Part shown: positions 284 to 26,852 of the stretch, piece after piece | Layout of the letters: the number at the start of each line of letters is the position of its first letter | How positions within the stretch are numbered: the stretch's first letter is position 1 | Sequence record: MN850576.1 | DNA: 64,000 bases | Strand: one strand, 5' to 3' | Source: Escherichia phage ime | The notes under the pieces: generated by a model | Seen by the model: only the letters and a program-made list of their open reading frames with translations | Told to the model about the DNA's origin: nothing | Databases searched by the model: none | Position numbers and translations under genes: made by a program

Positions 284-313
284 ACAAAAATGCCCCACCC
301 TTTCGGGCAGGGC
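284..313 (-). terminator. rho-independent terminator (minus strand)
   Basis: Minus-strand RNA GCCCUGCCC-GAAA-GGGUGGGGC (9-bp stem with two G.U pairs, GNRA loop) followed by UUUUU; lies just downstream of the SSB-like gene stop. Confidence 0.6.
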
Positions 314-328
314 TATGTTAACTAGATG

Positions 329-1555
329 TTAGAATGGGATGTCATCATCAAAGGCGTACTGTGCTGGATTCTGATCCATCGGGTCATCTTCCTCGTCATT
401 TACAGGAGGAGCGTCTACAGTATTTTGCTGTGAAGCAGCTTCCTGTTTGGCAGCTTGAGGTTCTTGATGGTCAGTGGACCCAGCACCGTTCTTGATCCAA
501 TCGTACAACGGCTCAGCCAGATTAGTCAAGACATCTTTTGCTTCTGCAGTAATTGCCGCTGCAAAATCATCAACTTTCGTTTTCTTGTCAATACGGCGAC
601 AAGCGTTCAACACCGCATTACCGACACTGGCACCTACTTCATCTTCAGTTCGGTTGGTGGCTTGAGCATACTCTTTCTTAAGCTCAATAGTGACTACGTG
701 CAGTGTTTTAGCCACACCTAGTGGGTCGTCTACCTTAAACCCGCGATCCAGGATGATTTGCAACGCATTGATGCTATGTCCCGTCTCCACACCAATAGGG
801 TCGTAAGAGGATTTACGCTTGCCACCAGAGCCTTGAGTGCCGTTCTCTGCCTTAGGTGGATAGGCTTTGAAACCACTGATAATGTTTCCGGTGTCTTTGT
901 CAACAATGGCTGCAACACGACCACCTACCACCAGGTCTTTAAGCTGCTCATCAGTAACAACCATGGCACCTTCGCCAATCTTGTGGTCATTAACAGTAAC
1001 CACGTTGCCAACAATCTGAGTCACATCGCCATAGATGCGTAAAACGTCCTGATTGGCATTCTGCTGAGGTTTCTGCTTCTGGCCTTGTGATTGTGCACCT
1101 TGTTGCTGTTTTTGCTGCTGAGTCGCTGCTGGAGCCTCTCCTGCACCCAGCTTGACCATCTTAGCCAGTGAGCCTTTGTAATAGGTCTTACCGTTATGCT
1201 CGTTTGCCTTCAAAGGGATATTTACGATCCATCCCGGCGTTACGGTTTCCCACTTGTCATCAATCTTAACAGAGACAGAGTCTTGATGACCAGGTTTAAG
1301 CAGCTTATCACCCATACTGATCCAAACTTCTTCACCACCTTGAAGCAGGTTATCAGAGGAATCCAGTTCAGAAATCAGTAAAGAGATGGTGTGGCTGGAT
1401 TCAATTTTCTTACCTTGCCACACAGTGGTTTTAATACCTGTTGTAGGATCAGCACCTTTGATAGGTTTGATGCTGACACGTTTAATCATGCCGTGAGCCA
1501 GTAAAACAGTTTCACGCGGATTCATCGGGTTAGCGAATTGTTGAATAACGCTCAT
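329..1555 (-). CDS. single-stranded DNA-binding protein-like, acidic C-terminal tail ending DDDIPF
   Basis: 408-aa ORF with Q/G-rich linker; the last residues ...AFDDDIPF match the C-terminal tip of bacterial SSB. Location in a replication module with primase-helicase and polymerase. Confidence 0.55.
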   Translation of the reverse strand: MSVIQQFANPMNPRETVLLAHGMIKRVSIKPIKGADPTTGIKTTVWQGKKIESSHTISLLISELDSSDNLLQGGEEVWISMGDKLLKPGHQDSVSVKIDDKWETVTPGWIVNIPLKANEHNGKTYYKGSLAKMVKLGAGEAPAATQQQKQQQGAQSQGQKQKPQQNANQDVLRIYGDVTQIVGNVVTVNDHKIGEGAMVVTDEQLKDLVVGGRVAAIVDKDTGNIISGFKAYPPKAENGTQGSGGKRKSSYDPIGVETGHSINALQIILDRGFKVDDPLGVAKTLHVVTIELKKEYAQATNRTEDEVGASVGNAVLNACRRIDKKTKVDDFAAAITAEAKDVLTNLAEPLYDWIKNGAGSTDHQEPQAAKQEAASQQNTVDAPPVNDEEDDPMDQNPAQYAFDDDIPF

Positions 1556-1920
1556 TATTTGTCTCCTTGTTCTTCGTTAGTGTTTGCCGTGTGTGCAAAC
1601 CCTGCTTGAATTAATTTGTCCTGAACTTGAGCCAACAGGCCCATTGCAAAACTTGTGGTCCCAGAGAGGGCCATCAACATATCTCGTTGTTGAGCTACCC
1701 AACCTAAGGCATAGTCCAAACGACGATATTTTTCTTCTTCACGCAGAGCCTGAAATAATTGTTCAGCCTCCGGTTGTTGTGTGAGCTCCTGAAGTCTTCC
1801 CATGAAAGAAGAAAGCACTAGCAAAAGAGACACTTGATCTTTACTTAACCCTAAGAAAAATTCTTGAGGTTGTTCTTGCTCGTTCATCGCAACCGACGCT
1901 TGATCGTTCATTTGTTCCAT
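1555..1920 (-). CDS. hypothetical protein
   Basis: 121-aa ORF, same strand as neighbours, stop overlaps downstream start. Confidence 0.5.
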   Translation of the reverse strand: MEQMNDQASVAMNEQEQPQEFFLGLSKDQVSLLLVLSSFMGRLQELTQQPEAEQLFQALREEEKYRRLDYALGWVAQQRDMLMALSGTTSFAMGLLAQVQDKLIQAGFAHTANTNEEQGDK

Positions 1921-2003
1921 TATGGAATCTCCGATTTTATTTGAACAACATAGAAGGAGACACTATTTTAGCATCCCCTTCTGTAAATTACAATAGATAT
2001 TTG

Positions 2004-2249
2004 TTAGCCAATCACTTCAAAAGTTCCCCAATTCCCGTCCAGCAGGCAGGTGATCGGATCCCCATCGTCGTCAAAGATTTCAAAGTTTTCAGCATCCAGG
2101 ATGTGGCCCTCGAACACAATACTTTCGTCGCCACCACCAGAAATAACAGCGTATTCCTTACCTTGAGTCAAGTTTTGACACCCTTTGCCACCAAAACCTA
2201 CTTCAACACAACGTACTTTCTGTCCTGCGCGAGCAACTACTCCAGTCAT
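2004..2249 (-). CDS. hypothetical protein
   Basis: 81-aa ORF in co-directional early gene string. Confidence 0.4.
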   Translation of the reverse strand: MTGVVARAGQKVRCVEVGFGGKGCQNLTQGKEYAVISGGGDESIVFEGHILDAENFEIFDDDGDPITCLLDGNWGTFEVIG

Positions 2250-2266
2250 CTTAAGGTCTCCTGATA

Positions 2267-2587
2267 TTAATCGTCAAGTTCAAAATAGATTTTAACAGCT
2301 TCATCAAAGATTGGAATCCCGATGTTGTTGATAAGCTGCCAAACTACCATATCTTTACCTGGGTCTGGGAGAATGTCAACCTTTCTCCATGCGCTGTATA
2401 TCCAGTTCGGACCACCTTCTGCACTAACTGGCAGATTTTCACCAGCCTCCTGCAGATACTTATACAGCAAAAGATATTCTGGATACTCTAGAACACTGTC
2501 CTCTGTAGTATATAGCAGTTCACGGTATACTTTTAAGAACCCTGCGGGGGTGATGTTTTCAGTCTTCATTTGCTGCTTCTCCTGCAT
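2267..2587 (-). CDS. hypothetical protein
   Basis: 106-aa ORF, tightly packed with flanking minus-strand genes. Confidence 0.5.
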   Translation of the reverse strand: MQEKQQMKTENITPAGFLKVYRELLYTTEDSVLEYPEYLLLYKYLQEAGENLPVSAEGGPNWIYSAWRKVDILPDPGKDMVVWQLINNIGIPIFDEAVKIYFELDD

Positions 2588-2948
2588 TCATCAGATCTGC
2601 CATAGCGTCACCCACGAAGAGAACAACCACATCGTTGATCGCGTCAGCATCATCTTTGTTGACGTTGCTGAATTTAGGACACACAGCAATGATCATATAG
2701 ACACCGTTACCAACCTGGACTGTCCGTGTGGTGCACATCATGGCGGTATTTGTGCCTTCTTTGAAGGCGAAGCCTTGAAGACGCTCCTCTAAAGTGTTAC
2801 CGGTAGATTTCAGAAGCGCCAGCTCGTCCAAGGCATAGATGATATCTCCGGAAGTTAGTGTTGCCTTGCCATCAGACACCATAATCACTCCATCAGCACC
2901 GTCAAGCTTAGAGGCTTCAAAGATATCAATATCCCAAATATTTTTCAT
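2559..2948 (-). CDS. hypothetical protein
   Basis: 129-aa ORF; start overlaps stop of upstream gene. Confidence 0.5.
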   Translation of the reverse strand: MKNIWDIDIFEASKLDGADGVIMVSDGKATLTSGDIIYALDELALLKSTGNTLEERLQGFAFKEGTNTAMMCTTRTVQVGNGVYMIIAVCPKFSNVNKDDADAINDVVVLFVGDAMADLMNAGEAANED

Positions 2949-3280
2949 TACGCTTCCTCGTCGTCTAAGTAATCATCAAGAGAGGTGAAGATTTCACCGA
3001 AGTATTCTAAGATTTCTAGCTCACGTGTGGTGCAGCAAACATAATCGCCTTGGTCGTCCTTAATAGTGGCCTCTTTACCCAGAACATGCACTTCAAATTC
3101 ATCGTTCAGCAGGACGGCCCCTGTGTAAACTTTGTCAGCTGTGCAGTCCCGAAAAGCAGAGTCCTTTTCCAGATAGTCTGGCTTAACCTTGGCTTTAATT
3201 CGTTGATATTGTTTGGTCATTGCTGTGGTCCCCTTTCGTTTTGATAGGGCCATTATATTAGGCCCTATCACTGTTGTCAA
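2948..3280 (-). CDS. hypothetical protein (paralog of 3284..3538)
   Basis: 110-aa ORF; shares motif RAF[KR]DCT...Y...KDD[QE]GD.V.CT with adjacent ORF. Confidence 0.5.
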   Translation of the reverse strand: MTTVIGPNIMALSKRKGTTAMTKQYQRIKAKVKPDYLEKDSAFRDCTADKVYTGAVLLNDEFEVHVLGKEATIKDDQGDYVCCTTRELEILEYFGEIFTSLDDYLDDEEA

Positions 3281-3283
3281 GTA

Positions 3284-3538
3284 TTAATGTTCAGGTTTTA
3301 CAAAAACTACTTCATTAACAGTGCACCAGACAGAGTCTCCTTCGTCATCTTTAAAGGTAAGGCACTGTGCTGAGTTTTCCAGCTCATCAATCTCTTCTTG
3401 TGATAAAGGGGCCCCTTCTTCCAGAAGGGCTTTTACCAGAGGGTTCTCACAAAACTCTGCTTCATAAATTGCACCGACTGTGCAATCTTTAAAAGCTCGG
3501 TCATTTGCAACGCATTCTGGCTTCAAAGTAATTTTCAT
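3284..3538 (-). CDS. hypothetical protein (paralog of 2948..3280)
   Basis: 84-aa ORF; shares the same motif as its neighbour. Confidence 0.5.
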   Translation of the reverse strand: MKITLKPECVANDRAFKDCTVGAIYEAEFCENPLVKALLEEGAPLSQEEIDELENSAQCLTFKDDEGDSVWCTVNEVVFVKPEH

Positions 3539-3614
3539 CTTGGCAGTCTCCTTAGTTATTTAAAAATCAACGCTCTGTTTGTGTGAAGCATCTTATATCT
3601 AATCTTACTTCTTG

Positions 3615-4013
3615 TCAATGGCTATTTTCAATCATCCACACAGGGTCGAGGTAAATTTGTTGACGTCTTGCCCAATGACAAACTTCATTGTACATCTGAA
3701 TCTCTTTGTCTGTCAATTCACGAATAGGCTCATCTATACCCTCATTTTTGTGGTAATCCCATTCTGCGTCTATCTCCCACAGCCATGACTTGTTGTCACC
3801 ACGCTTACGCACACAGAAGTCACCAGGGCGGCCTGCCAATGCATTTAAGAACTCGTTCTCCGCTCGCTCCTGGAGAATACTAAGGAGCAAAACGTTGGAA
3901 CATGACCGTAAAATATGCTTCAGCTCGCAGTCATCGATCTCAACTTCGATACGTTGTTTGACTGTGTGAGTACCTTTTACTAACATTCTACCTCCTCTAT
4001 ACAAACTCTGCAA
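3615..4013 (-). CDS. hypothetical protein
   Basis: 132-aa ORF in early gene string. Confidence 0.5.
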   Translation of the reverse strand: MQSLYRGGRMLVKGTHTVKQRIEVEIDDCELKHILRSCSNVLLLSILQERAENEFLNALAGRPGDFCVRKRGDNKSWLWEIDAEWDYHKNEGIDEPIRELTDKEIQMYNEVCHWARRQQIYLDPVWMIENSH

Positions 4014-4191
4014 GGGTTGTGTCGCTCATTGCACTGTGATAAATAGAATACCCTAACCCGTTAGAGTGCAAAAACCATGGCGTGCCGAAATTATCTTTCA
4101 CGTAGACATCGCCGTTGCTTGTAAATGGCCAATATTCTTCACCAAGGGTGAAATACCTACTCATACCCTCAGCCAGATACTTTACTTTCAT
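3997..4191 (-). CDS. hypothetical protein
   Basis: 64-aa ORF, overlapping stop/start with neighbours. Confidence 0.4.
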   Translation of the reverse strand: MKVKYLAEGMSRYFTLGEEYWPFTSNGDVYVKDNFGTPWFLHSNGLGYSIYHSAMSDTTLAEFV

Positions 4192-4415
4192 AGGTCCTCT
4201 TCAACAGCTACAAACTTGGCAAGCAGGGTGGTTCCGTAGATATGATACTCACCGTTTGCCAGATGGGAGATAAACCAGGCAACCCCTTCCTCGTCTTTAA
4301 TCATTTTATTTGCACGAGCTTTATCGTAATAAACCTCGTAGGTCTTTCCTTCTTTAAAGAATGACAGGTCTGTCATCTTTTCTTCTACAAAGGTAGCTTT
4401 AACCAAAGTCGTCAT
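4188..4415 (-). CDS. hypothetical protein
   Basis: 75-aa ORF, ATGA-type overlap with neighbours. Confidence 0.45.
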   Translation of the reverse strand: MTTLVKATFVEEKMTDLSFFKEGKTYEVYYDKARANKMIKDEEGVAWFISHLANGEYHIYGTTLLAKFVAVEEDL

Positions 4416-4786
4416 TGATCAGTCTCCTTCTTGTTAAGTCTGAATACTGCAATAATAGCATTCCCAAGGTGCAGTGTCAAATCATTTCCAAGATACCACA
4501 GCATCCCACGGTCATCTTTAATGAAAGGGTAACAATCTGGTGCCTTCCAGACATTGTACACTTTGCCAACCTGAAAGAAATCAGGCCCTGTCGGGATTTT
4601 GGTGCCAGGCCACACTTGAGATACCTGAACACACTCCACCTGCATAATAACAGGAATAGTCATGGATGTAAATGTTTTTGTTGGTTCTACTACCATAAAA
4701 GTCTCCTCTTTGCTCAACAACACTTCCATGTGTTGATAGTTTACATTAGTGACAATCACCCCAATTACGACCACACAAGTATTCAC
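4412..4786 (-). CDS. hypothetical protein
   Basis: 124-aa ORF; first 13 codons overlap polymerase exon 2, so the true start may be the internal Met (MEVLL..., about 4729). Confidence 0.45.
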   Translation of the reverse strand: MNTCVVVIGVIVTNVNYQHMEVLLSKEETFMVVEPTKTFTSMTIPVIMQVECVQVSQVWPGTKIPTGPDFFQVGKVYNVWKAPDCYPFIKDDRGMLWYLGNDLTLHLGNAIIAVFRLNKKETDQ

Positions 4787-5099
4787 CTGTGATCTGGAAC
4801 GGGACTCCCATCATTTTAGAAGCTTGCCAGAAGCAATGCACCACCATTTCACCCACAGGGCTCCAGATAAGTTCAAGCTTTCCGTCATCGTTCAGGATAG
4901 GATCGTACACCGTGTTTCCGTCTCTGTCAACCACTTCGTTTCCGTTTTCATCCTTGCGTGCCTTTTTGTACTTATGACCGTCAAACACATGAAGTTTGGC
5001 CTCCTGCTCTGCCTTAAATGCTTCCAATTCTTCAATTGTGTCGAAGGTGTACACAGTCTTATACTTAGGCGTGTCAGGGACCTGAAGTTGGTACTCATC
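4746..5099 (-). CDS. DNA polymerase family A, C-terminal segment (putative exon 2)
   Basis: Frame is open from an upstream TAG and begins DEYQLQV...; ends ...GRNWGDCH, resembling family A polymerase C-termini as recalled. No ATG or RBS of its own; the ORF track starts it at TTG 5102. Confidence 0.65.
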   Translation of the reverse strand, partial: DEYQLQVPDTPKYKTVYTFDTIEELEAFKAEQEAKLHVFDGHKYKKARKDENGNEVVDRDGNTVYDPILNDDGKLELIWSPVGEMVVHCFWQASKMMGVPFQITGEYLCGRNWGDCH

Positions 5100-5941
5100 C
5101 AATAGTTCAGGTAGGTCGTTAAGCTACCCCGCACCATTACGTGCACAGCCATACGGTTTCCTGTATGGATCGGACTATCTCACTACCTTGTTACCAAGGC
5201 ACCTCTCATTTCGACCGCACTTGCTGGCCTACTCTACTCGCTTCTTCACACCAAACTATGTTGGAGCTATGCTTTCGATAGTCTCTGAACGTTACTACCA
5301 GGTGTAGTTTTTAGAGATATGTTTCCACTGTCTTCTTTGCTTTATGGCTCTGACCGTCTCATAAGGATACCCAAGATCCCTAATCTCACATTGTCGTAGA
5401 CCACTCTGCAACAGTTCACAAATCTCCATTACCTCATCCTCGGTCAGCACAGCGTTGGCATTATACTCACCGACTGGCCTTACTCTGAGCTCATTATCGT
5501 AGGCGTGTTTGATATTTTCACCGGGGGTAGTCCATTCCAGGTTCCAGTATGCATTGTTGTACTTATTTCCATCCTTATGGTTCACCCATGTGAGCTTTTC
5601 AGGATCAGGGTTCGGTACAAAGCATTCAGCAACCAAGTGGTGGACACCTTTTGTGCACTGCCTTCCATCGATGAGCATGGTTACGCAAAGGTAACCTCTA
5701 CCATTATCAAAACAAAACATTGTTGTATGATCACGTTTCGATAAAGGTATTGTTCCATCATCAAACACGATATACCCGTGATAATCAGCTGATCTAGCCA
5801 TTTTAACTACACCCCTTTAGTCTTCGCTGCGGATTAGCATATTGAGTTTTTACCATGTTTAGGTGTAAAAGTCAACTTAGCCTTCCCGTCAATTAAAGAG
5901 GTTTTCGACGTGCATCACTGCACGAAGCCACAATGTTATTT
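5100..5941 (-). mobile_element. putative group I intron carrying an HNH homing endonuclease ORF, inserted in the DNA polymerase gene
   Basis: Interrupts the polymerase after the His codon of motif C; exon 1 ends in U, element ends in G; possible P1 pairing of exon CCAU with GUGG 11-14 nt into the element; about 335 nt of non-coding sequence flank a 507-nt HNH ORF. Confidence 0.55.
5295..5801 (-). CDS. HNH homing endonuclease (I-HmuI-like, HNH_3 type with C-terminal helix-turn-helix)
   Basis: 168 aa; motif ...WVNHKDGNKYNNAYWNLEWTTPGEN... is typical of HNH_3 endonucleases; C-terminal ...LTEDEVMEICELL...WKHI resembles their DNA-binding tail; own RBS upstream. Confidence 0.8.
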   Translation of the reverse strand: MARSADYHGYIVFDDGTIPLSKRDHTTMFCFDNGRGYLCVTMLIDGRQCTKGVHHLVAECFVPNPDPEKLTWVNHKDGNKYNNAYWNLEWTTPGENIKHAYDNELRVRPVGEYNANAVLTEDEVMEICELLQSGLRQCEIRDLGYPYETVRAIKQRRQWKHISKNYTW

Positions 5942-8365
5942 ATGGTAATAAATAATACGACGAACACCTTCATCGTACCACCCACGCTTCACCATTTGGT
6001 GGTGCATGAGTATCCCAACTAAGTCACACAACGATGCACCACCATTTTGTTGGTATGCATTAAGTAAAGAGTGTTTAGATCGGGTCCAGATAGCATGACC
6101 ATCAAAAGAGTAGATAAACTTCTTACCCGTTGCTTCCCAGAATTTCTCCAGATCCTCTTTACGCCCTTTAAGACCAGGGTTGGCATCCCAAAGCGCATCG
6201 ATTACCCTTTGCCCCAACTCTGGGGAGATATCCAGCATGTCTGCAACTTTATCTTTTTGTGCCCCATACATAACCCCGTACGTGATAGGTTTACCGTCGT
6301 TACGAGACACCTCTCTACCTGCTACTTTCGTATATGCCTCAGCATTGTTTTGGTGGGCATCCCCGTTACTTACAACATCGTAATACAGGCCGTTGTCGAA
6401 CTCAAAGGCACCCCAAGCCCCGATAAGCTGCTCTAAGTTGGACCCGTCAATACCGATCTCAAAGTATCCTGGAGGAACACCCCACAGACTGCGCATCTCT
6501 TTACCCATAACCACTTTAGGAGATGGTTTAGGCATGTTTGCACAAATACTGTGTTTCTGTCGGGAAGTGTTTGTTAATCCAGAGCTTTTAGCAGGAAGCT
6601 TATGGTCAATCTTCAAACGTGGGTGATTAAGAAGACCAGTATCAACCTTATCCTCCTTGATTGGATCAAGGACCGATCTGCGGTTTCGCAATGATAACCA
6701 CAAGACGATATCTTTAGCCATCTCTCCGTTCAATTTTTCAAGATTCGGACATAGGTGTCCAAACGTATCTTTCAGTTGCGGAGAAGTAATAAGTGCCCTG
6801 GCTTTTCTGCGTATTTTCCCGAACACTTCCTTTTTAATCCTTTCGGAGTTAGGAAAGCTTCGGAACTTGTGCACTGTTGTCTGAAACTTAGCATCAGTTT
6901 TGTTCCAGAAGTTGATAATTAGGTCACAATACTCTGACTCTAAAAGCTCGTCCATGTATGCATATACTCGTGCATCAACATCTGCATCAGGTAGAGCTTT
7001 CTTCTTGCTGTCCTTAGTTACATCCTTAGTTCTCCACATTGTCGGAAGCCAACCAGCACTGATCAGGTATCGCTTAATGTCGTCCTGGTTGCTGATTTTC
7101 ATAGGTATCTTGCAGTCAGGCATTCGCTTCTGCTGCAGATCACTTATTGCCTGATCCATCAGCTCTTTAGGTAAAGGTTGTGGTGTGGAGGTGCCCTTAA
7201 TATAACCTCTCAAGAAATCAGCCATCTTGTCGGGGTCTTTGCAGCCCATCTCTTCGCACCATTTTATCCCCATCTTGCTGACATCTCCTGTGGAGGTAAA
7301 TGCTCGCTTAGGCGGGGCTTTGAATTCTAAAGCGCTCATGTCTACAGGATAGCCAAGCTTATCTTTTAACCATTTCCAACCATTATTGGAGATTGTCCCA
7401 TCTTGGTTAAACGGCTTTTCAGGGAACTTGGGCCGCTGAGACATTGACAACTCTTTTAAAGGAAGTTGAGGTTCAACACGATCAGCGATCTCTTTCATCC
7501 ACGCATCGCAACGGTCACGTAAAGCAATAGCTCCATCTATGTCGAAGTATACACCCTGACGGGCCTGCAGCTCCATCAGGAAGTGCTGCAGCATGCCTCG
7601 ACGTAATGCGTTCTTCCAGGTGATCTTCTTGAACCCTTTCGGCTTCTCTTTGGCTGGATCGTACATAAAGTTCTGCATGTCAGATTTGCCGTAGAATACA
7701 CCTTTTGATTCCGCTACCAGCTCTTTCCAGAGCAGCTCCTGGATGATAACGTCCTCGAATACACGATCCACATACTTCCACAACGGAAGATCGCGCCAGT
7801 CATCAATTTGAACTTTCTGGTTACCAAGGGCGTAGCCCCATGCCATAAGGCCGTGAGGACCAACAGGCTGCATTTTCTTAGTAACCGGGTTGAATACAGA
7901 GTCCGGACAACCTTTTGGTAAAGGGCGATCAGGCCACAAGATTCTGCTCATCGCCAACGTATCAAACAGGTTAACCTGGTGGTCGTTGATAGTCCCCATG
8001 CATTTAGGATCACGGAACATATCAAAATGAATACCGGATAATCTTTCCATCAGCATAAAGTCATAACTGTAGCAGTTATGGCAGTTCAAAGCTGTTGGTG
8101 ACCAGTCGGAATTGCCTGTAAGCCAACCTTCCAACTCCGAAAAATCTGCTATGCGAACTTCAAAATCTTTATGAAGAGTTTTCTTTGCCAGAATAAAGTT
8201 CTTAGCCTTCTCTATATCCTCTTCGGAGTAGTGTGTGCGGTCATTTAGAGGAAGGAACAGCATAAAACGGTTCTTATTCAGCTCTTTAAACAGGCCGCAG
8301 TGATAATAAAGATCTGGATCTTCCAGCAAACCGGATGACTCAAAGTCGAACGACCACATGCTCAT
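5942..8365 (-). CDS. DNA polymerase family A with 3'-5' exonuclease domain (putative exon 1; ORF track extends to 5936)
   Basis: N-terminal FDFESSGL matches the Exo I motif; GIDGSNLE...FDNG...NGDAH and K...YGVMYGA align with polymerase motifs A and B as I recall them from T7 gp5; ORF stops two codons after the motif C His. Confidence 0.8.
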
Positions 8366-8423
8366 ATACAGTTCTCCTTAAAGGGGAGGCGGTTGTACTA
8401 CCCCTCCCACTCTTTGTTAAACA

Positions 8424-10502
8424 TTAAAAAGGTGTTTCATCATCCTCAAAACCAGGGACCGGATCAGAGGATGGATCATCGTATTGGAGGTCTTCCTGCG
8501 TGTCAATAGGCTTGACAGTGGGTGTTACAACCTTATCAGCCACAACCTTGCCCATAGGTGTTTCTACAACTGCATGCTCCTGATCCTCAAACATAGCCTG
8601 AGGTCTCCAAACAACCTCCCCACCTTCTCCGTCTGTAAACATCTGCATTTCTTTGTCCCAGTACCAATTACTGGCATCATGGAACTTACCTGTATGCGGA
8701 TCCATAACTAAAGTGTCAGCAATACCTAAAGTTTTTGCTGGACGGTTTTTAAGACCTACCAGACGGACACGTCCACGAGAACGATCCACCATTTCTTCGG
8801 CCTCGACACCTATGACTACCCAACTCAACTGTTCAAGCCCAGCCGATCCTCGCAAATTCTCTTTTCGCACAGGATACCAGAAAGGTAATGGGTTACCATC
8901 CTTGTCCTTAGGGGGCACAATCTCTGTACGTTTGAGGTGAGCGATCACCAAGATAAACACGTTAAACTGCTTACAAAACGCAGCCAGTTGGGTCATAGCC
9001 ATGTCCAGTTCTTTTCGCTCATCCTTAACATTAAGCCCTGAAATTACCATGGACAGGTGATCCAGCACAATATAACGACAATGGTACAGGCAAACCATTT
9101 GCTTAAGCTTGGTAATCAACTCGTCCACTGGAATAGACCCGAAATGTTTGAACACTTTGATTTTTCCAGCTTTTGCCCATGATTGGTGAATCTCTGCGTG
9201 TTCTTGATCAGTTAAAAACTGGCTAGGATCTTCAACAAACTCTTTAACATCAAACCCTAACTGGTTTGCATACAAGGAGTTAATTGCTTCCTCTGGGTCC
9301 TCCTCAAGATGGATCATACATAGACGATCATCCTCTTCATAGTCATCAGCCTTCGGGCATGTTGGGTCCATTAGGTATCTTGCAATACAATGTTCCAGTT
9401 TTTTAGCTACGGTTGTTTTACCGCCACCTGATGGGCCTGTAAGCATTACAAGTGTCCCCTTGTGCAAGCCTTTTAACATTTTTTGCAGTTTTGGGAACTC
9501 TGCACTGATATCTACCCCGTTGGAAGTCTTTTTCCGCAAAGACTCGATAGAGAAGTCTTCTAAGTCCGACACAGCATCAGGCACGTATTTAACAGGATGC
9601 CGGAACATGTTGACAATATCTTCCAGCTTTTTAGCCTTCAGCATGTCACGGATATCTTTTACCCCGTCAGGGTCATTTACTTCACCAGGGTATTCTACGT
9701 GGTAAACGTTATCAGCCATCAAAAATGCTGCGATATTGTGCGTGGCCTCAACACCTTTAATGACGTGTTTTTGCTTCTCTACCTCGTTGGCTGCATCGTT
9801 ATCCATTGCCAGCACAACTGTTCCATAGCTACGGATAAACTTCTCATTGTTTGCAAAAGTATCTACTGCGTTTGCACATCCACAGTTAATTCCAACAAAA
9901 GGTAGGCAGGGTTTTCCTGCCAGATCACCACCGTTGATAACTGCATCGATCCCGTCCTGGACCTCTTTAGCCCACTGTTTCACCTTTGCCGGGGCTTTAG
10001 CATTGGTGAGAATCCCTTTTACTTGTATCTGATATGCAGCCTGCCATGCTGCAATAACATCGCCTTCCCCCTCACAAACGTTAATCTGCTTACGGTTGTT
10101 AGAAGATGCACACAGCTTTTGCCCAAACATTTGGGAGTTAGCCTTTACGATCCCAACCGTCGTAAAGTGCCCACGTTGCTCTTTGGGGATCGTCCAGTCA
10201 CGCTTTTTGAAACCGGACAGATTCCCGTAGCGGTCGTAATATGGGAAATATGTTGCAGTAACTGTCACACCGTCTTCTTGGGACAATGCTGATCGCACAC
10301 CAAAATATTGTGCAGCCATCAGACCGATATTTTGTTGTGGGACAGGGACAATTTTAGTATTTTCTAAAACAGTCTCTACAGTTTCAACTTCTTTTTCATC
10401 ACGATAGTCTCGTTTCACACTTCCCCCACTTTTATACTTAGTTGCTTTCGGGTTTGGCTCACCGAAACGGTTGTATGCAGATGCCATAAATTTACTTCCC
10501 AT
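8424..10502 (-). CDS. DNA primase-helicase (T7 gp4-like; TOPRIM primase plus DnaB-type helicase)
   Basis: 692 aa; TOPRIM motifs VCEGEGD and AMDNDAAN; Walker A GPSGGGKTT; acidic C-terminal tail ending ...EDDETPF. Confidence 0.8.
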   Translation of the reverse strand: MGSKFMASAYNRFGEPNPKATKYKSGGSVKRDYRDEKEVETVETVLENTKIVPVPQQNIGLMAAQYFGVRSALSQEDGVTVTATYFPYYDRYGNLSGFKKRDWTIPKEQRGHFTTVGIVKANSQMFGQKLCASSNNRKQINVCEGEGDVIAAWQAAYQIQVKGILTNAKAPAKVKQWAKEVQDGIDAVINGGDLAGKPCLPFVGINCGCANAVDTFANNEKFIRSYGTVVLAMDNDAANEVEKQKHVIKGVEATHNIAAFLMADNVYHVEYPGEVNDPDGVKDIRDMLKAKKLEDIVNMFRHPVKYVPDAVSDLEDFSIESLRKKTSNGVDISAEFPKLQKMLKGLHKGTLVMLTGPSGGGKTTVAKKLEHCIARYLMDPTCPKADDYEEDDRLCMIHLEEDPEEAINSLYANQLGFDVKEFVEDPSQFLTDQEHAEIHQSWAKAGKIKVFKHFGSIPVDELITKLKQMVCLYHCRYIVLDHLSMVISGLNVKDERKELDMAMTQLAAFCKQFNVFILVIAHLKRTEIVPPKDKDGNPLPFWYPVRKENLRGSAGLEQLSWVVIGVEAEEMVDRSRGRVRLVGLKNRPAKTLGIADTLVMDPHTGKFHDASNWYWDKEMQMFTDGEGGEVVWRPQAMFEDQEHAVVETPMGKVVADKVVTPTVKPIDTQEDLQYDDPSSDPVPGFEDDETPF

Positions 10503-26062: not shown

Positions 26063-26326
26063 ATGGCAACAGAGTTAAAATTTGCATCAAACCGTAAAAC
26101 TAAGAAGTATCTGTCCTCAGTAGCTCCAGGCACTGTGGTGATGTTTGTTGATGAACTTGGGGATGTGAATACAGCACTTGTTGTAAAATCACATCCTGCA
26201 AACATATATGTTGGGGTATTTGACCTGTTCAGAAAGGTGTTTGTAGAACTGCCTCACAGTTTGGTTGTTACAGAAATGGATGCCTGCATAGAAATTCTTG
26301 GCGAAGTTATGGTGGAGGAACAATAA
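26063..26326 (+). CDS. small paralog family protein, copy 1
   Basis: 87 aa; GGAGG RBS; shares the core pattern (GTVV / CG.VV, conserved Val/Asp positions) with the next three ORFs. Confidence 0.55.
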   Translation: MATELKFASNRKTKKYLSSVAPGTVVMFVDELGDVNTALVVKSHPANIYVGVFDLFRKVFVELPHSLVVTEMDACIEILGEVMVEEQ

Positions 26327-26589
26327 TGGCTACCAGCATTGTATTCAATTCTAAGGTGAAGAACAAAAAGCGTGCAGACAGTTTTCCGTGTGGGACCGTG
26401 GTAAGTTGCGACGGAGACGGCATTCAAAACATAGTTATGATTGTCAAAACAGGAGAACATTGTGTGTGGGGGTTCGATTTAGAAAATAATGAGTTGTACG
26501 ATCTGCCGCCAAACATGAAAGTTACAGAGCTTGACACCAAAATTACCATCCTTGGAGAGACAAGCTATTCAAAAGAAGGAGGAGAATAA
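26326..26589 (+). CDS. small paralog family protein, copy 2
   Basis: 87 aa, exactly 264 nt; start overlaps previous stop (ATAATGG). Confidence 0.55.
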   Translation: MATSIVFNSKVKNKKRADSFPCGTVVSCDGDGIQNIVMIVKTGEHCVWGFDLENNELYDLPPNMKVTELDTKITILGETSYSKEGGE

Positions 26590-26852
26590 TGACCACAAAA
26601 ATCACTATCGCAGAACCGAAAGCTAACACTCAGCCTATCGAAAAGTTTAAGTGCGGTGAGGTGGTAACATTCACACCAGATAATGAAGATGCTAAGATTT
26701 TCGCAATGGTCACAGCTGAGTGGATGTGTGACAACACCACACAGGTTCTGCGTTTTGACACCTATCTTACCGATGAAATCAGGAACGACAAGATTGTGAC
26801 TGGTGTGGATACTGAGATTGTTTTCTACAAGAGCTTTTTAGAGGGTTTCTGA
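26589..26852 (+). CDS. small paralog family protein, copy 3
   Basis: 87 aa, exactly 264 nt; start overlaps previous stop. Confidence 0.55.
   Translation: MTTKITIAEPKANTQPIEKFKCGEVVTFTPDNEDAKIFAMVTAEWMCDNTTQVLRFDTYLTDEIRNDKIVTGVDTEIVFYKSFLEGF

What the first reader, a model, noticed from the sequence alone, without database searches (positions are those of the whole stretch)
329..10502. T7-style replisome signature: SSB-like and primase-helicase proteins both end in acidic tails with a terminal Phe, and the SSB tail copies the bacterial SSB tip
The SSB-like protein ends ...AFDDDIPF and the primase-helicase ends ...EDDETPF. In T7, the acidic C-terminal Phe tails of gp2.5 and gp4 dock onto the polymerase. 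An exact DDDIPF tip additionally predicts binding to host SSB-interacting proteins, which could recruit or sequester host repair factors.
Basis: partly seen in the sequence, partly recalled or inferred. Interest (0 to 1): 0.45.

Follow-up and report, generated by a model that had tools for sequence, protein, structure and literature searches.

The report
Phage SSB and helicase docking tails
An rV5-type coliphage's own single-strand-DNA-binding protein and its replicative helicase both end in the short acidic tip, finishing in Pro-Phe, that bacterial SSB uses to recruit partner enzymes; the pattern is real and conserved, but the SSB half was already described in a 2026 preprint and the T7-like docking idea still needs binding tests.

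Summary
The window is a Vequintavirus; the gene is 100% identical to that of phage rV5_ev146. ORF 329-1555(-) ends AFDDDIPF and the gp4-like helicase 8424-10502(-) ends FEDDETPF. These are the only two of 81 ORFs that end in PF.

- **Conservation:** 138 of 150 cluster representatives of the 408-aa family end in an acidic run plus an aromatic residue (31 are exactly DDDIPF). The other 12 are mostly truncated fragments. 112 of 120 helicase homologues end in acidic-PF.
- **T7 resemblance:** helicase and polymerase hit only T7 gp4 and gp5 among solved structures, and no other SSB is annotated in the genome.
- **Prior work:** the SSB half is not new. Bas52_0087 (99% identical) was described in a 2026 preprint as an SSB-like trigger of the DRT10 defence, with an E. 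coli-like C-tip and a genetic link to exonuclease I.
- **Untested:** the SSB-tip-like helicase tail and T7-style docking on the polymerase are new but inferred.
- **Caveat:** in 32 of 116 relatives, including rV5 itself, a conserved 15-residue cap (APxGLQYG...) follows the Phe. It often comes with a homing endonuclease gene, and it also occurs on unrelated SSBs.

The parts
329..1555 (-). Gene for the 408-aa SSB-like protein (phrog_4477; orthologue of Bas52_0087 and rV5 gp209)
1136..1555 (-). N-terminal OB-fold domain (aa 1-140), present in all family members
1052..1135 (-). Gln-rich disordered linker (aa 141-168; 12 Gln). Its length varies among close relatives
848..1051 (-). Second, small OB-like domain (aa 169-236; b1-b2-b3-short helix-b4-b5). 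Absent from the ~270-300-aa family members
   Evidence: 35 of 119 members have it
488..808 (-). Four-helix domain (aa 250-356), the most conserved part of the family. Contains D252 and Y351, the DRT10 escape positions in Bas52_0087
332..487 (-). Disordered acidic tail (aa 357-408; 13 D/E and 1 K/R in aa 356-408)
332..355 (-). Tip AFDDDIPF, the E. coli SSB C-terminal tip motif
286..313 (-). Terminator-like hairpin plus T run directly after the stop codon. No cap and no endonuclease gene in this phage
   Evidence: read from the sequence; compare
1555..1920 (-). 121-aa ORF (phrog_7310, function unknown). Its stop overlaps the start of the SSB-like gene. It sits immediately upstream in every related Vequintavirinae locus examined
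8424..10502 (-). Gene for the 692-aa gp4-like helicase, annotated primase-helicase
8736..9512 (-). DnaB/gp4-type helicase domain (aa 331-589)
   Evidence: Pfam AAA_25 and DnaB_C; T7 gp4 E 1.6e-16
10014..10088 (-). Weak TOPRIM-like motif (aa 139-163, ...CEGEGDVIAAW...). No CxxC zinc motif precedes it
   Evidence: E 0.018, below cut-off; sequence
8427..8669 (-). C-terminal acidic region of the helicase (aa 612-692; 15 D/E in the last 60) ending in the tip GFEDDETPF (8427-8453)
5936..8365 (-). Family-A DNA polymerase, first exon ORF. T7 gp5 is the only match among solved structures
5150..5951 (-). Group I intron-like sequence that interrupts the polymerase gene and holds the HNH endonuclease ORF 5295-5801
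   Evidence: RF00028, 31.9 bits, E 5e-06, below gathering score; joined CDS in the BASEL record
4746..5102 (-). Polymerase C-terminal exon ORF (118 aa)

Best explanation
The 408-aa gene most likely encodes the phage's own single-stranded-DNA-binding protein. It belongs to a large family without a Pfam model. The predicted layout is two OB folds, a four-helix domain (probably for self-association) and a disordered acidic tail of about 50 residues that ends in the bacterial SSB tip, FDDDIPF. The gp4-like helicase of the same replication module ends in a look-alike tip, FEDDETPF.

Most likely both tips are docking peptides. An acidic run plus a C-terminal Pro-Phe would insert into a basic and hydrophobic pocket on a partner protein. 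One partner, by analogy with T7, would be the phage's gp5-like polymerase; in T7 the tails of gp4 and gp2.5 compete for basic patches on gp5. For the SSB tip, host enzymes that read the SSB tip, such as exonuclease I, are further likely partners.

Shown here: the sequences, their conservation, the predicted folds, the similarity of helicase and polymerase to T7 gp4 and gp5, the conserved gene order, and the lack of another annotated SSB. Shown by others: the 99%-identical Bas52_0087 is needed to trigger the DRT10 defence, and exonuclease I dosage modulates that defence. Inferred: ssDNA binding, and every statement about what the tips bind.
For: - **Tails present and conserved:**
- **Disorder and acidity of the tail:**
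- **OB folds:**
- **Replication-module context:** the order helicase, then PolA, then the SSB-like gene 2-4 kb downstream, is kept even in relatives of about 30% identity.
- **No other SSB** is annotated in the whole RefSeq genome NC_041869.
- **T7 likeness:** among solved structures the helicase matches T7 gp4 far above any other entry (only a weak Twinkle hit besides), and the polymerase matches only T7 gp5.
- **T7 mechanism in the literature:** PMC12339929 and bioRxiv 10.64898/2026.05.20.726333.
- **A phage SSB tip needed for a phage partner:** HK620 SSB and Sak4, PMC5928155.
- **Bas52_0087:** SSB-like architecture, FDDDIPF tip, escape mutants D252V and Y351C, SbcB link, bioRxiv 10.64898/2026.04.29.721553. 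It is 405/408 identical to the window protein, which has D252 and Y351.
- **Other sources that call it an SSB:** one GenBank record and one UniRef entry.
Against: - No sequence or profile similarity to PF00436, TIGR00621 or DUF2815 outside the tail.
- The T7 front basic patch (K587, K589, R590, R591) aligns to only 'KK' in this polymerase.
- More distant phages keep the DDDIPF tip on the SSB-like protein while their helicases end in GSY, GAY or SNY, so the two tails are not strictly coupled.
- 32 of 116 Vequintavirus records, including the viable type phage rV5 (gp209, 423 aa), carry 15 extra residues after the Phe. A free terminal Phe on this protein is therefore not indispensable, unless the cap is removed after translation.
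- The primase half of the 692-aa protein is only weakly supported.
- There are no binding data for any of this.
Confidence: 0.6

Rival explanations
1. The tips mainly target the host rather than the phage polymerase. The SSB-like protein, and possibly the helicase, would mimic the E. coli SSB tip to recruit or titrate host SSB-binding enzymes such as exonuclease I, RecQ, PriA, chi and RecO. This would protect or process phage ssDNA. Contacts with the phage polymerase would be made elsewhere. This reading overlaps with the best explanation and is not exclusive of it.
For: - 31 of 150 family representatives end in exactly DDDIPF. Nine match E. coli SSB over MDFDDDIPF and five over PPMDFDDDIPF. 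That is more identity than an electrostatic polymerase contact would need.
- The preprint finds that SbcB dosage modulates DRT10 restriction of Bas52, and it proposes competition with SbcB.
- The SSB-Ct hexapeptide is a known hub for host proteins (abstracts of PMC5872125 and PMC3632105).
Against: - Expression of Bas52_0087 alone has no effect on host viability.
- The helicase tip (xTPF, xSPF, xEPF) departs from the host consensus, yet it is just as conserved.
- Capped variants are common.
- No binding has been shown.
Confidence: 0.3
2. The 408-aa protein is not the replicative SSB. It would be another OB-fold accessory factor, for example a recombination mediator or annealing protein, a helicase loader, or a polymerase processivity partner, that merely carries an SSB-type tip. 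The phage would then rely on host SSB to coat ssDNA.
For: - The most conserved part is the four-helix domain, not the OB folds.
- The DRT10 escape mutations map to that domain.
- There is no sequence homology to any SSB.
Against: - The layout of OB fold, low-complexity linker and acidic tip is the SSB layout.
- No other SSB candidate is annotated in a 135-kb lytic phage that encodes its own helicase, polymerase and ligase.
- Phold and AF2 gave the same call in the preprint.
Confidence: 0.1
3. The likeness of the two tails, and their identity to the host tip, reflects gene-end shuffling rather than selection for a shared docking site. Recombination or homing-endonuclease co-conversion at the conserved tip-coding DNA would move 3' ends between SSB genes and helicase genes.
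For: - The same 15-residue cap follows the PF tip in the SSB-like protein, in primase-helicases, in canonical PF00436 SSBs and in two other proteins.
- Endonuclease genes lie directly downstream in many cases.
Against: - Tips are conserved across whole families at the protein level with divergent DNA.
- The helicase and SSB tips differ consistently at the position before the terminal Pro-Phe (I, V or L against T, S, E or C). That argues against recent exchange between the two genes and for selection on each.
Confidence: 0.07

Closest known systems
Bas52_0087 of Escherichia phage RudolfGeigy (QXV84166.1), the SSB-like trigger of the DRT10 (UG17) reverse-transcriptase defence (bioRxiv 10.64898/2026.04.29.721553)
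   Same: It is the same protein: 405/408 identical, same length, same gene neighbourhood, with D252 and Y351 present. The preprint reports the same predicted architecture, two OB folds plus a disordered C-terminus with FDDDIPF.
   Different: The preprint covers one protein and its role in defence triggering. It does not address the helicase tail, the T7-type replisome context, the distribution of the tip across the family, or the capped variants.
Bacteriophage T7 replisome: gp2.5 SSB, gp4 primase-helicase, gp5 polymerase
   Same: - A gp4-like hexameric-type helicase and a gp5-like family-A polymerase are the only or best sequence matches among solved structures.
- Both the SSB and the helicase carry acidic C-terminal tails that end in Phe.
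- In T7 these tails bind the basic patches of gp5 and compete with each other.
   Different: - The SSB here is not a gp2.5 homologue. It has two OB folds plus a helical domain and is 408 aa, against a single OB fold in T7.
- The tips end in xPF and copy the bacterial SSB tip.
- No zinc-binding domain is visible in the helicase protein, and the TOPRIM signal is weak.
- The front basic patch is only partly conserved.
- A thioredoxin-binding domain was not examined.
E. coli SSB and its C-terminal tip (SSB-Ct, DDDIPF) as an interaction hub
   Same: The last 7 of 8 residues are identical. The layout of OB fold, low-complexity linker and acidic tip is the same.
   Different: There is no detectable sequence homology in the DNA-binding part. 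The protein has an additional OB fold and a four-helix domain. Its oligomeric state is unknown.
SSB of phage HK620 and its partner Sak4 (PMC5928155)
   Same: A distant phage SSB whose last six residues (NDYPPF) are required for action with a phage-encoded partner. This is a precedent for a tip that serves phage proteins.
   Different: It is a different SSB family with a different partner, and its tip is not identical to the host tip.
Free-standing homing endonucleases next to phage SSB genes (T4 segG beside gene 32; recalled from memory, not checked here)
   Same: An endonuclease gene sits directly downstream of an SSB gene, which suggests homing into the SSB gene end. This applies to the cap noticed in passing.
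   Different: Here the insertion point is exactly after the Phe codon of the tip and adds a conserved 15-residue peptide. It occurs on several unrelated protein families.

Membership tests
Bacterial-type SSB (Pfam PF00436 / TIGR00621) | DNA-binding domain matches the SSB sequence models | tested here: not met
   No Pfam hit for the window protein or for any of 119 family members. NCBIfam ssb models match at E 0.38 over the tail region only. hhalign of each domain against a small SSB alignment gives probability 0.2-0.3%.
Bacterial-type SSB (Pfam PF00436 / TIGR00621) | OB fold | tested here: met
Bacterial-type SSB (Pfam PF00436 / TIGR00621) | Disordered linker followed by an acidic tip ending in ...DDDIPF | tested here: met
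Bacterial-type SSB (Pfam PF00436 / TIGR00621) | Cooperative, sequence-independent ssDNA binding as an oligomer | not testable with these tools
   Needs purified protein.
T7 gp2.5-like SSB (DUF2815 type) | Sequence or specific structural similarity to gp2.5 or DUF2815 | tested here: inconclusive
T7 gp2.5-like SSB (DUF2815 type) | Acidic C-terminal tail with a terminal Phe | tested here: met
T7-type replisome | gp4-like ring helicase domain | tested here: met
   Pfam DnaB_C and AAA_25. T7 gp4 E 1.6e-16 is the top PDB match.
T7-type replisome | Primase (zinc-binding domain plus TOPRIM) fused to the helicase | tested here: inconclusive
   phrog_239 'DNA primase/helicase' covers aa 18-677. Pfam Toprim reaches only E 0.018, below cut-off. 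No CxxC motif occurs in the first 130 residues (sequence).
T7-type replisome | Family-A polymerase closest to T7 gp5 | tested here: met
   The only PDB sequence matches are T7 gp5 entries, E 7.7e-15.
T7-type replisome | Helicase ends in an acidic tail with a C-terminal aromatic residue | tested here: met
   More distant relatives end in a non-acidic ...GSY or ...GAY.
T7-type replisome | Basic patch on the polymerase that receives the tails | tested here: inconclusive
   T7 KWKRR (587-591) aligns to a gap plus 'KK'. No structural model of the polymerase was made.
T7-type replisome | Tails of SSB and helicase bind the polymerase and compete | not testable with these tools
   Needs binding assays or complex prediction.
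phrog_4477 / Bas52_0087 family | Full-length match and orthology | tested here: met
   phrog_4477 E 4.5e-173 over aa 1-408. 99% identity to Bas52_0087. 253 cluster representatives at E <= 1e-3.

The most novel reading that the evidence does not exclude
The conserved 15-residue peptide that follows the terminal Phe in many relatives (AP[IVM]GLQ[YH]G....) may be the leading edge of a homing-endonuclease cassette. This cassette would home specifically into the DNA that encodes SSB-type C-terminal tips, in unrelated SSB families and in the helicase.

By making the Phe internal, the cap would create natural 'tip-masked' alleles. Such alleles could change which host and phage partners are bound, and whether SSB-sensing defences such as DRT10 are triggered.

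The window phage would then be the uncapped, target-site allele.
Probability: 0.3. Interest if true: 0.6.

Novelty: new member of a known kind. Interest (0 to 1): 0.38.

Why it matters
- **Annotation:** it gives a function to a widespread 'hypothetical' phage protein family. There are 253 clusters at 50% identity, with no Pfam model and a PHROG of unknown function. rV5-like phages are commonly used as therapy and biocontrol phages.
- **Replisome wiring:** the two-tail wiring known from T7 may extend to large myoviruses that have a non-homologous SSB.
- **Defence link:** the protein is already implicated as the trigger of a reverse-transcriptase defence. Knowing that its tip is universal in the family, that the helicase carries a look-alike, and that natural capped alleles exist gives direct handles for testing how such defences sense phage replication.

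Tried and rejected
- **Sequence homology to known SSBs:** Pfam on the window protein and on 119 members, NCBIfam, a PDB profile search and local hhalign found only the tail.
- **Cap as a translated group I intron:** rejected. Capped genes without an endonuclease have only about 48 nt before a stop codon and a terminator.
- **Cap strictly linked to an endonuclease gene:** rejected. L014, L016 and L020 have the cap without an endonuclease, and L006, L012 and L017 have the endonuclease without the cap.
- **Common origin of the endonucleases behind the capped SSB-like gene and the capped helicase:** no similarity in BLASTP, E 1.0.
- **Aligning the helicase tail to the T7 gp4 tail through the PDB:** nothing found.
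- **The search for related loci with the 119-sequence alignment:** failed because no stretch was conserved enough. The 22-sequence alignment was used instead.
- **Rfam at gathering threshold over the whole window:** no hits.
- **Literature:** searches for rV5 or Vequintavirus plus SSB gave nothing specific until the DRT10 preprint turned up.
Full report
**What the window is.** Bases 329-10502 are 98.4% identical to Escherichia phage rV5_ev146, and more than 100 Vequintavirus genomes match at 90-99%. The 408-aa gene itself is 100% identical to that of rV5_ev146. All genes in the first 22 kb lie on the minus strand.

**The observation.** ORF 329..1555(-) encodes 408 residues ending AFDDDIPF. A TAA stop and a terminator-like hairpin follow. 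ORF 8424..10502(-) encodes 692 residues ending FEDDETPF. Among 81 crude ORFs of the window, these are the only two that end in Pro-Phe. E. coli SSB ends ...NEPPMDFDDDIPF (PDB 1eqq), so the phage tip matches it in 7 of the last 8 residues.

**Conservation of the SSB-like tail.**
- A word-indexed search found 56 relatives of the 408-aa protein, none with a Pfam domain or an informative name. In an alignment of 22 of them, P407 and F408 are invariant.
- An exhaustive profile search found 253 cluster representatives at E <= 1e-3. Of the 150 examined, 114 end in PF, 7 in PF plus 1-2 residues, 4 in PF plus a 15-residue extension, and 13 in another acidic-aromatic end.
- The remaining 12 are mostly fragments that stop inside the protein.
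- 31 end in exactly DDDIPF, and several copy E. coli SSB as far as PPMDFDDDIPF.

**Conservation of the helicase tail.** 112 of 120 homologues end in an acidic run followed by x-P-F, where x is mostly T, S, E or C. Within each lineage the two tips resemble each other: an aromatic residue, then three or four acidic residues, then x-P-F. Examples are FDDDIPF with FEDDETPF, and WDFEDVPF with FPEDEDCPF.

**What the 408-aa protein is.**
- Sequence methods give nothing: no Pfam hit, PHROG 4477 'unknown function', and 'hypothetical protein' in nearly all GenBank records.
- AlphaFold2 on the family alignment gives four parts. These are a beta-barrel (aa 1-140), a disordered Gln-rich linker, a small five-stranded domain with OB topology (aa 171-232), and a four-helix domain (aa 253-355). 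A disordered tail from aa 359 completes the model.
- Most family members are about 270-300 aa and lack the middle domain.
- Profile comparisons with canonical SSBs are negative. The resemblance is therefore one of fold and layout, not detectable homology.

**Context.**
- The helicase matches T7 gp4 (E 1.6e-16) and the polymerase matches T7 gp5 (E 7.7e-15). T7 gp5 is the only polymerase match among solved structures; the helicase has one further weak match, to Twinkle (E 8e-05).
- The order helicase, polymerase, then the SSB-like gene 2-4 kb downstream is kept even in relatives of about 30% identity from IMG/VR.
- The full RefSeq annotation of a sister phage (NC_041869) lists a helicase, polymerase, ligase, exonucleases and nucleotide-metabolism genes, but no SSB.
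- This makes the 408-aa protein the only SSB candidate.

**Prior knowledge.** A bioRxiv preprint of April 2026 (10.64898/2026.04.29.721553) isolated mutants of phage Bas52 that escape the DRT10 reverse-transcriptase defence.
- Both mutants map to Bas52_0087, with substitutions D252V and Y351C.
- The authors describe the protein as SSB-like, with two OB folds and a disordered C-terminus. Its FDDDIPF motif resembles the E. coli SSB C-tip.
- They link the system to host exonuclease I, SbcB.
- Bas52_0087 is 405/408 identical to the window protein, which has D252 and Y351.
- One GenBank record (JLBYU08) and one UniRef entry already call the protein an SSB.

The first half of the finding, including the idea that the tip engages host SSB partners, has therefore already been stated. 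It has genetic but no biochemical support.

**The T7 analogy.** In T7, the 17-residue acidic tail of gp4 binds the front basic patch and the thioredoxin-binding-domain patch of gp5. The acidic tail of gp2.5 competes for gp5, and its terminal Phe is essential.

Arguments for the analogy here:
- The helicase and polymerase are homologous to the T7 proteins.
- Both tails are conserved.

Arguments for caution:
- The SSB is not a gp2.5 relative.
- The T7 front patch KWKRR aligns to only 'KK'.
- The primase half of the 692-aa protein is weak. TOPRIM reaches E 0.018 and no zinc motif is present.
- Helicases of more distant relatives end in ...GSY...GAY or ...SNY, while the SSB-like protein keeps DDDIPF.

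I rate an SSB with a functional docking tip as likely. T7-style sharing of a polymerase site is plausible but unproven.

**An unexpected complication: the cap.** In 32 of 116 Vequintavirus records the SSB-like ORF does not stop after the Phe. It continues with 15 residues, APVGLQYGKSRIHAL. The type phage rV5 is one of them: its gp209 is 423 aa and is followed by the overlapping 'endonuclease' gp208. The break in similarity lies exactly after the Phe codon.

The same cap occurs elsewhere:
- after the PF tip of some primase-helicases (P0217, P0221);
- on canonical PF00436 SSBs of lambdoid-size phages and on two other Pfam-less proteins.

An HNH-type endonuclease gene with a zinc-finger-like CxxC motif often starts within the last codons of the cap. 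Some capped genes, however, are followed only by a terminator. Differences between cap copies fall mostly on third codon positions, so the peptide itself appears to be selected.

The most economical reading is a free-standing homing-endonuclease cassette that lands at the DNA encoding SSB-type tips. Whatever its origin, viable phages exist in which the Phe is internal. That weakens any claim that a free terminal Phe on this protein is indispensable.

**Verdict.** The SSB identity is well supported by predicted structure and context, and it has already been published as a preprint. The look-alike helicase tail, the family-wide survey and the cap are new but incremental. They fall within known principles: T7 tails, the SSB-Ct hub, and homing endonucleases beside SSB genes.

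Noticed in passing
Relatives: L003 4225-4272; L041 (rV5 NC_011041) 372-1643; L004 5017-5064; L030 (mEp013) 2112-2576; L031-L040. Absent from the window; the site would be at window 329-334.: A conserved 15-residue cap, AP[IVM]GLQ[YH]G....[YH]x[LIF], follows the terminal Phe of SSB-type tips. It is present in 28% of Vequintavirus SSB-like genes, in some primase-helicases, in canonical PF00436 SSBs and in two other proteins. An HNH-type endonuclease gene with a CxxC motif often starts inside the cap. Variation at third codon positions suggests the peptide is under selection.
   Followed up: partly
window 5150-5951 (-), with ORF 5295-5801: The family-A polymerase gene is split by a group I intron-like sequence (RF00028, 31.9 bits, E 5e-06, below the gathering score) that carries an HNH endonuclease ORF. 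The 118-aa C-terminal exon ORF lies at 4746-5102. BASEL records annotate a joined CDS.
   Followed up: partly
window 8424-10502 (-), aa 1-330: The protein annotated as 'primase-helicase' has no CxxC zinc-binding motif and only a sub-threshold TOPRIM match (E 0.018). Whether it primes is open.
   Followed up: partly
Homologues P0209-P0211 and P0250-P0298: Many helicase homologues are about 300 aa longer (975-1025 aa against about 670-690), and the query covers them only in part. This suggests an insertion such as an intein or a fused endonuclease.
   Followed up: no
window 1555-1920 (-): A 121-aa ORF (phrog_7310, unknown function) has its stop overlapping the start codon of the SSB-like gene. 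It sits immediately upstream in every Vequintavirinae relative examined, so it is a possible partner protein.
   Followed up: partly
window 1052-1135 (-), aa 141-168: The Gln-rich linker of the SSB-like protein varies in length among relatives more than 95% identical, with 4- and 13-residue deletions in P0002 and P0005.
   Followed up: no
window 26063-26852 (+): Three consecutive ORFs of exactly 87 aa each (264 nt) lie head to tail and look like a tandem triplication.
   Followed up: no
GenBank MG0656xx records: Sixteen records labelled 'Campylobacter phage', with host Campylobacter jejuni, are 95-98% identical to E. coli Vequintaviruses over this region. The host label looks doubtful.
   Followed up: no
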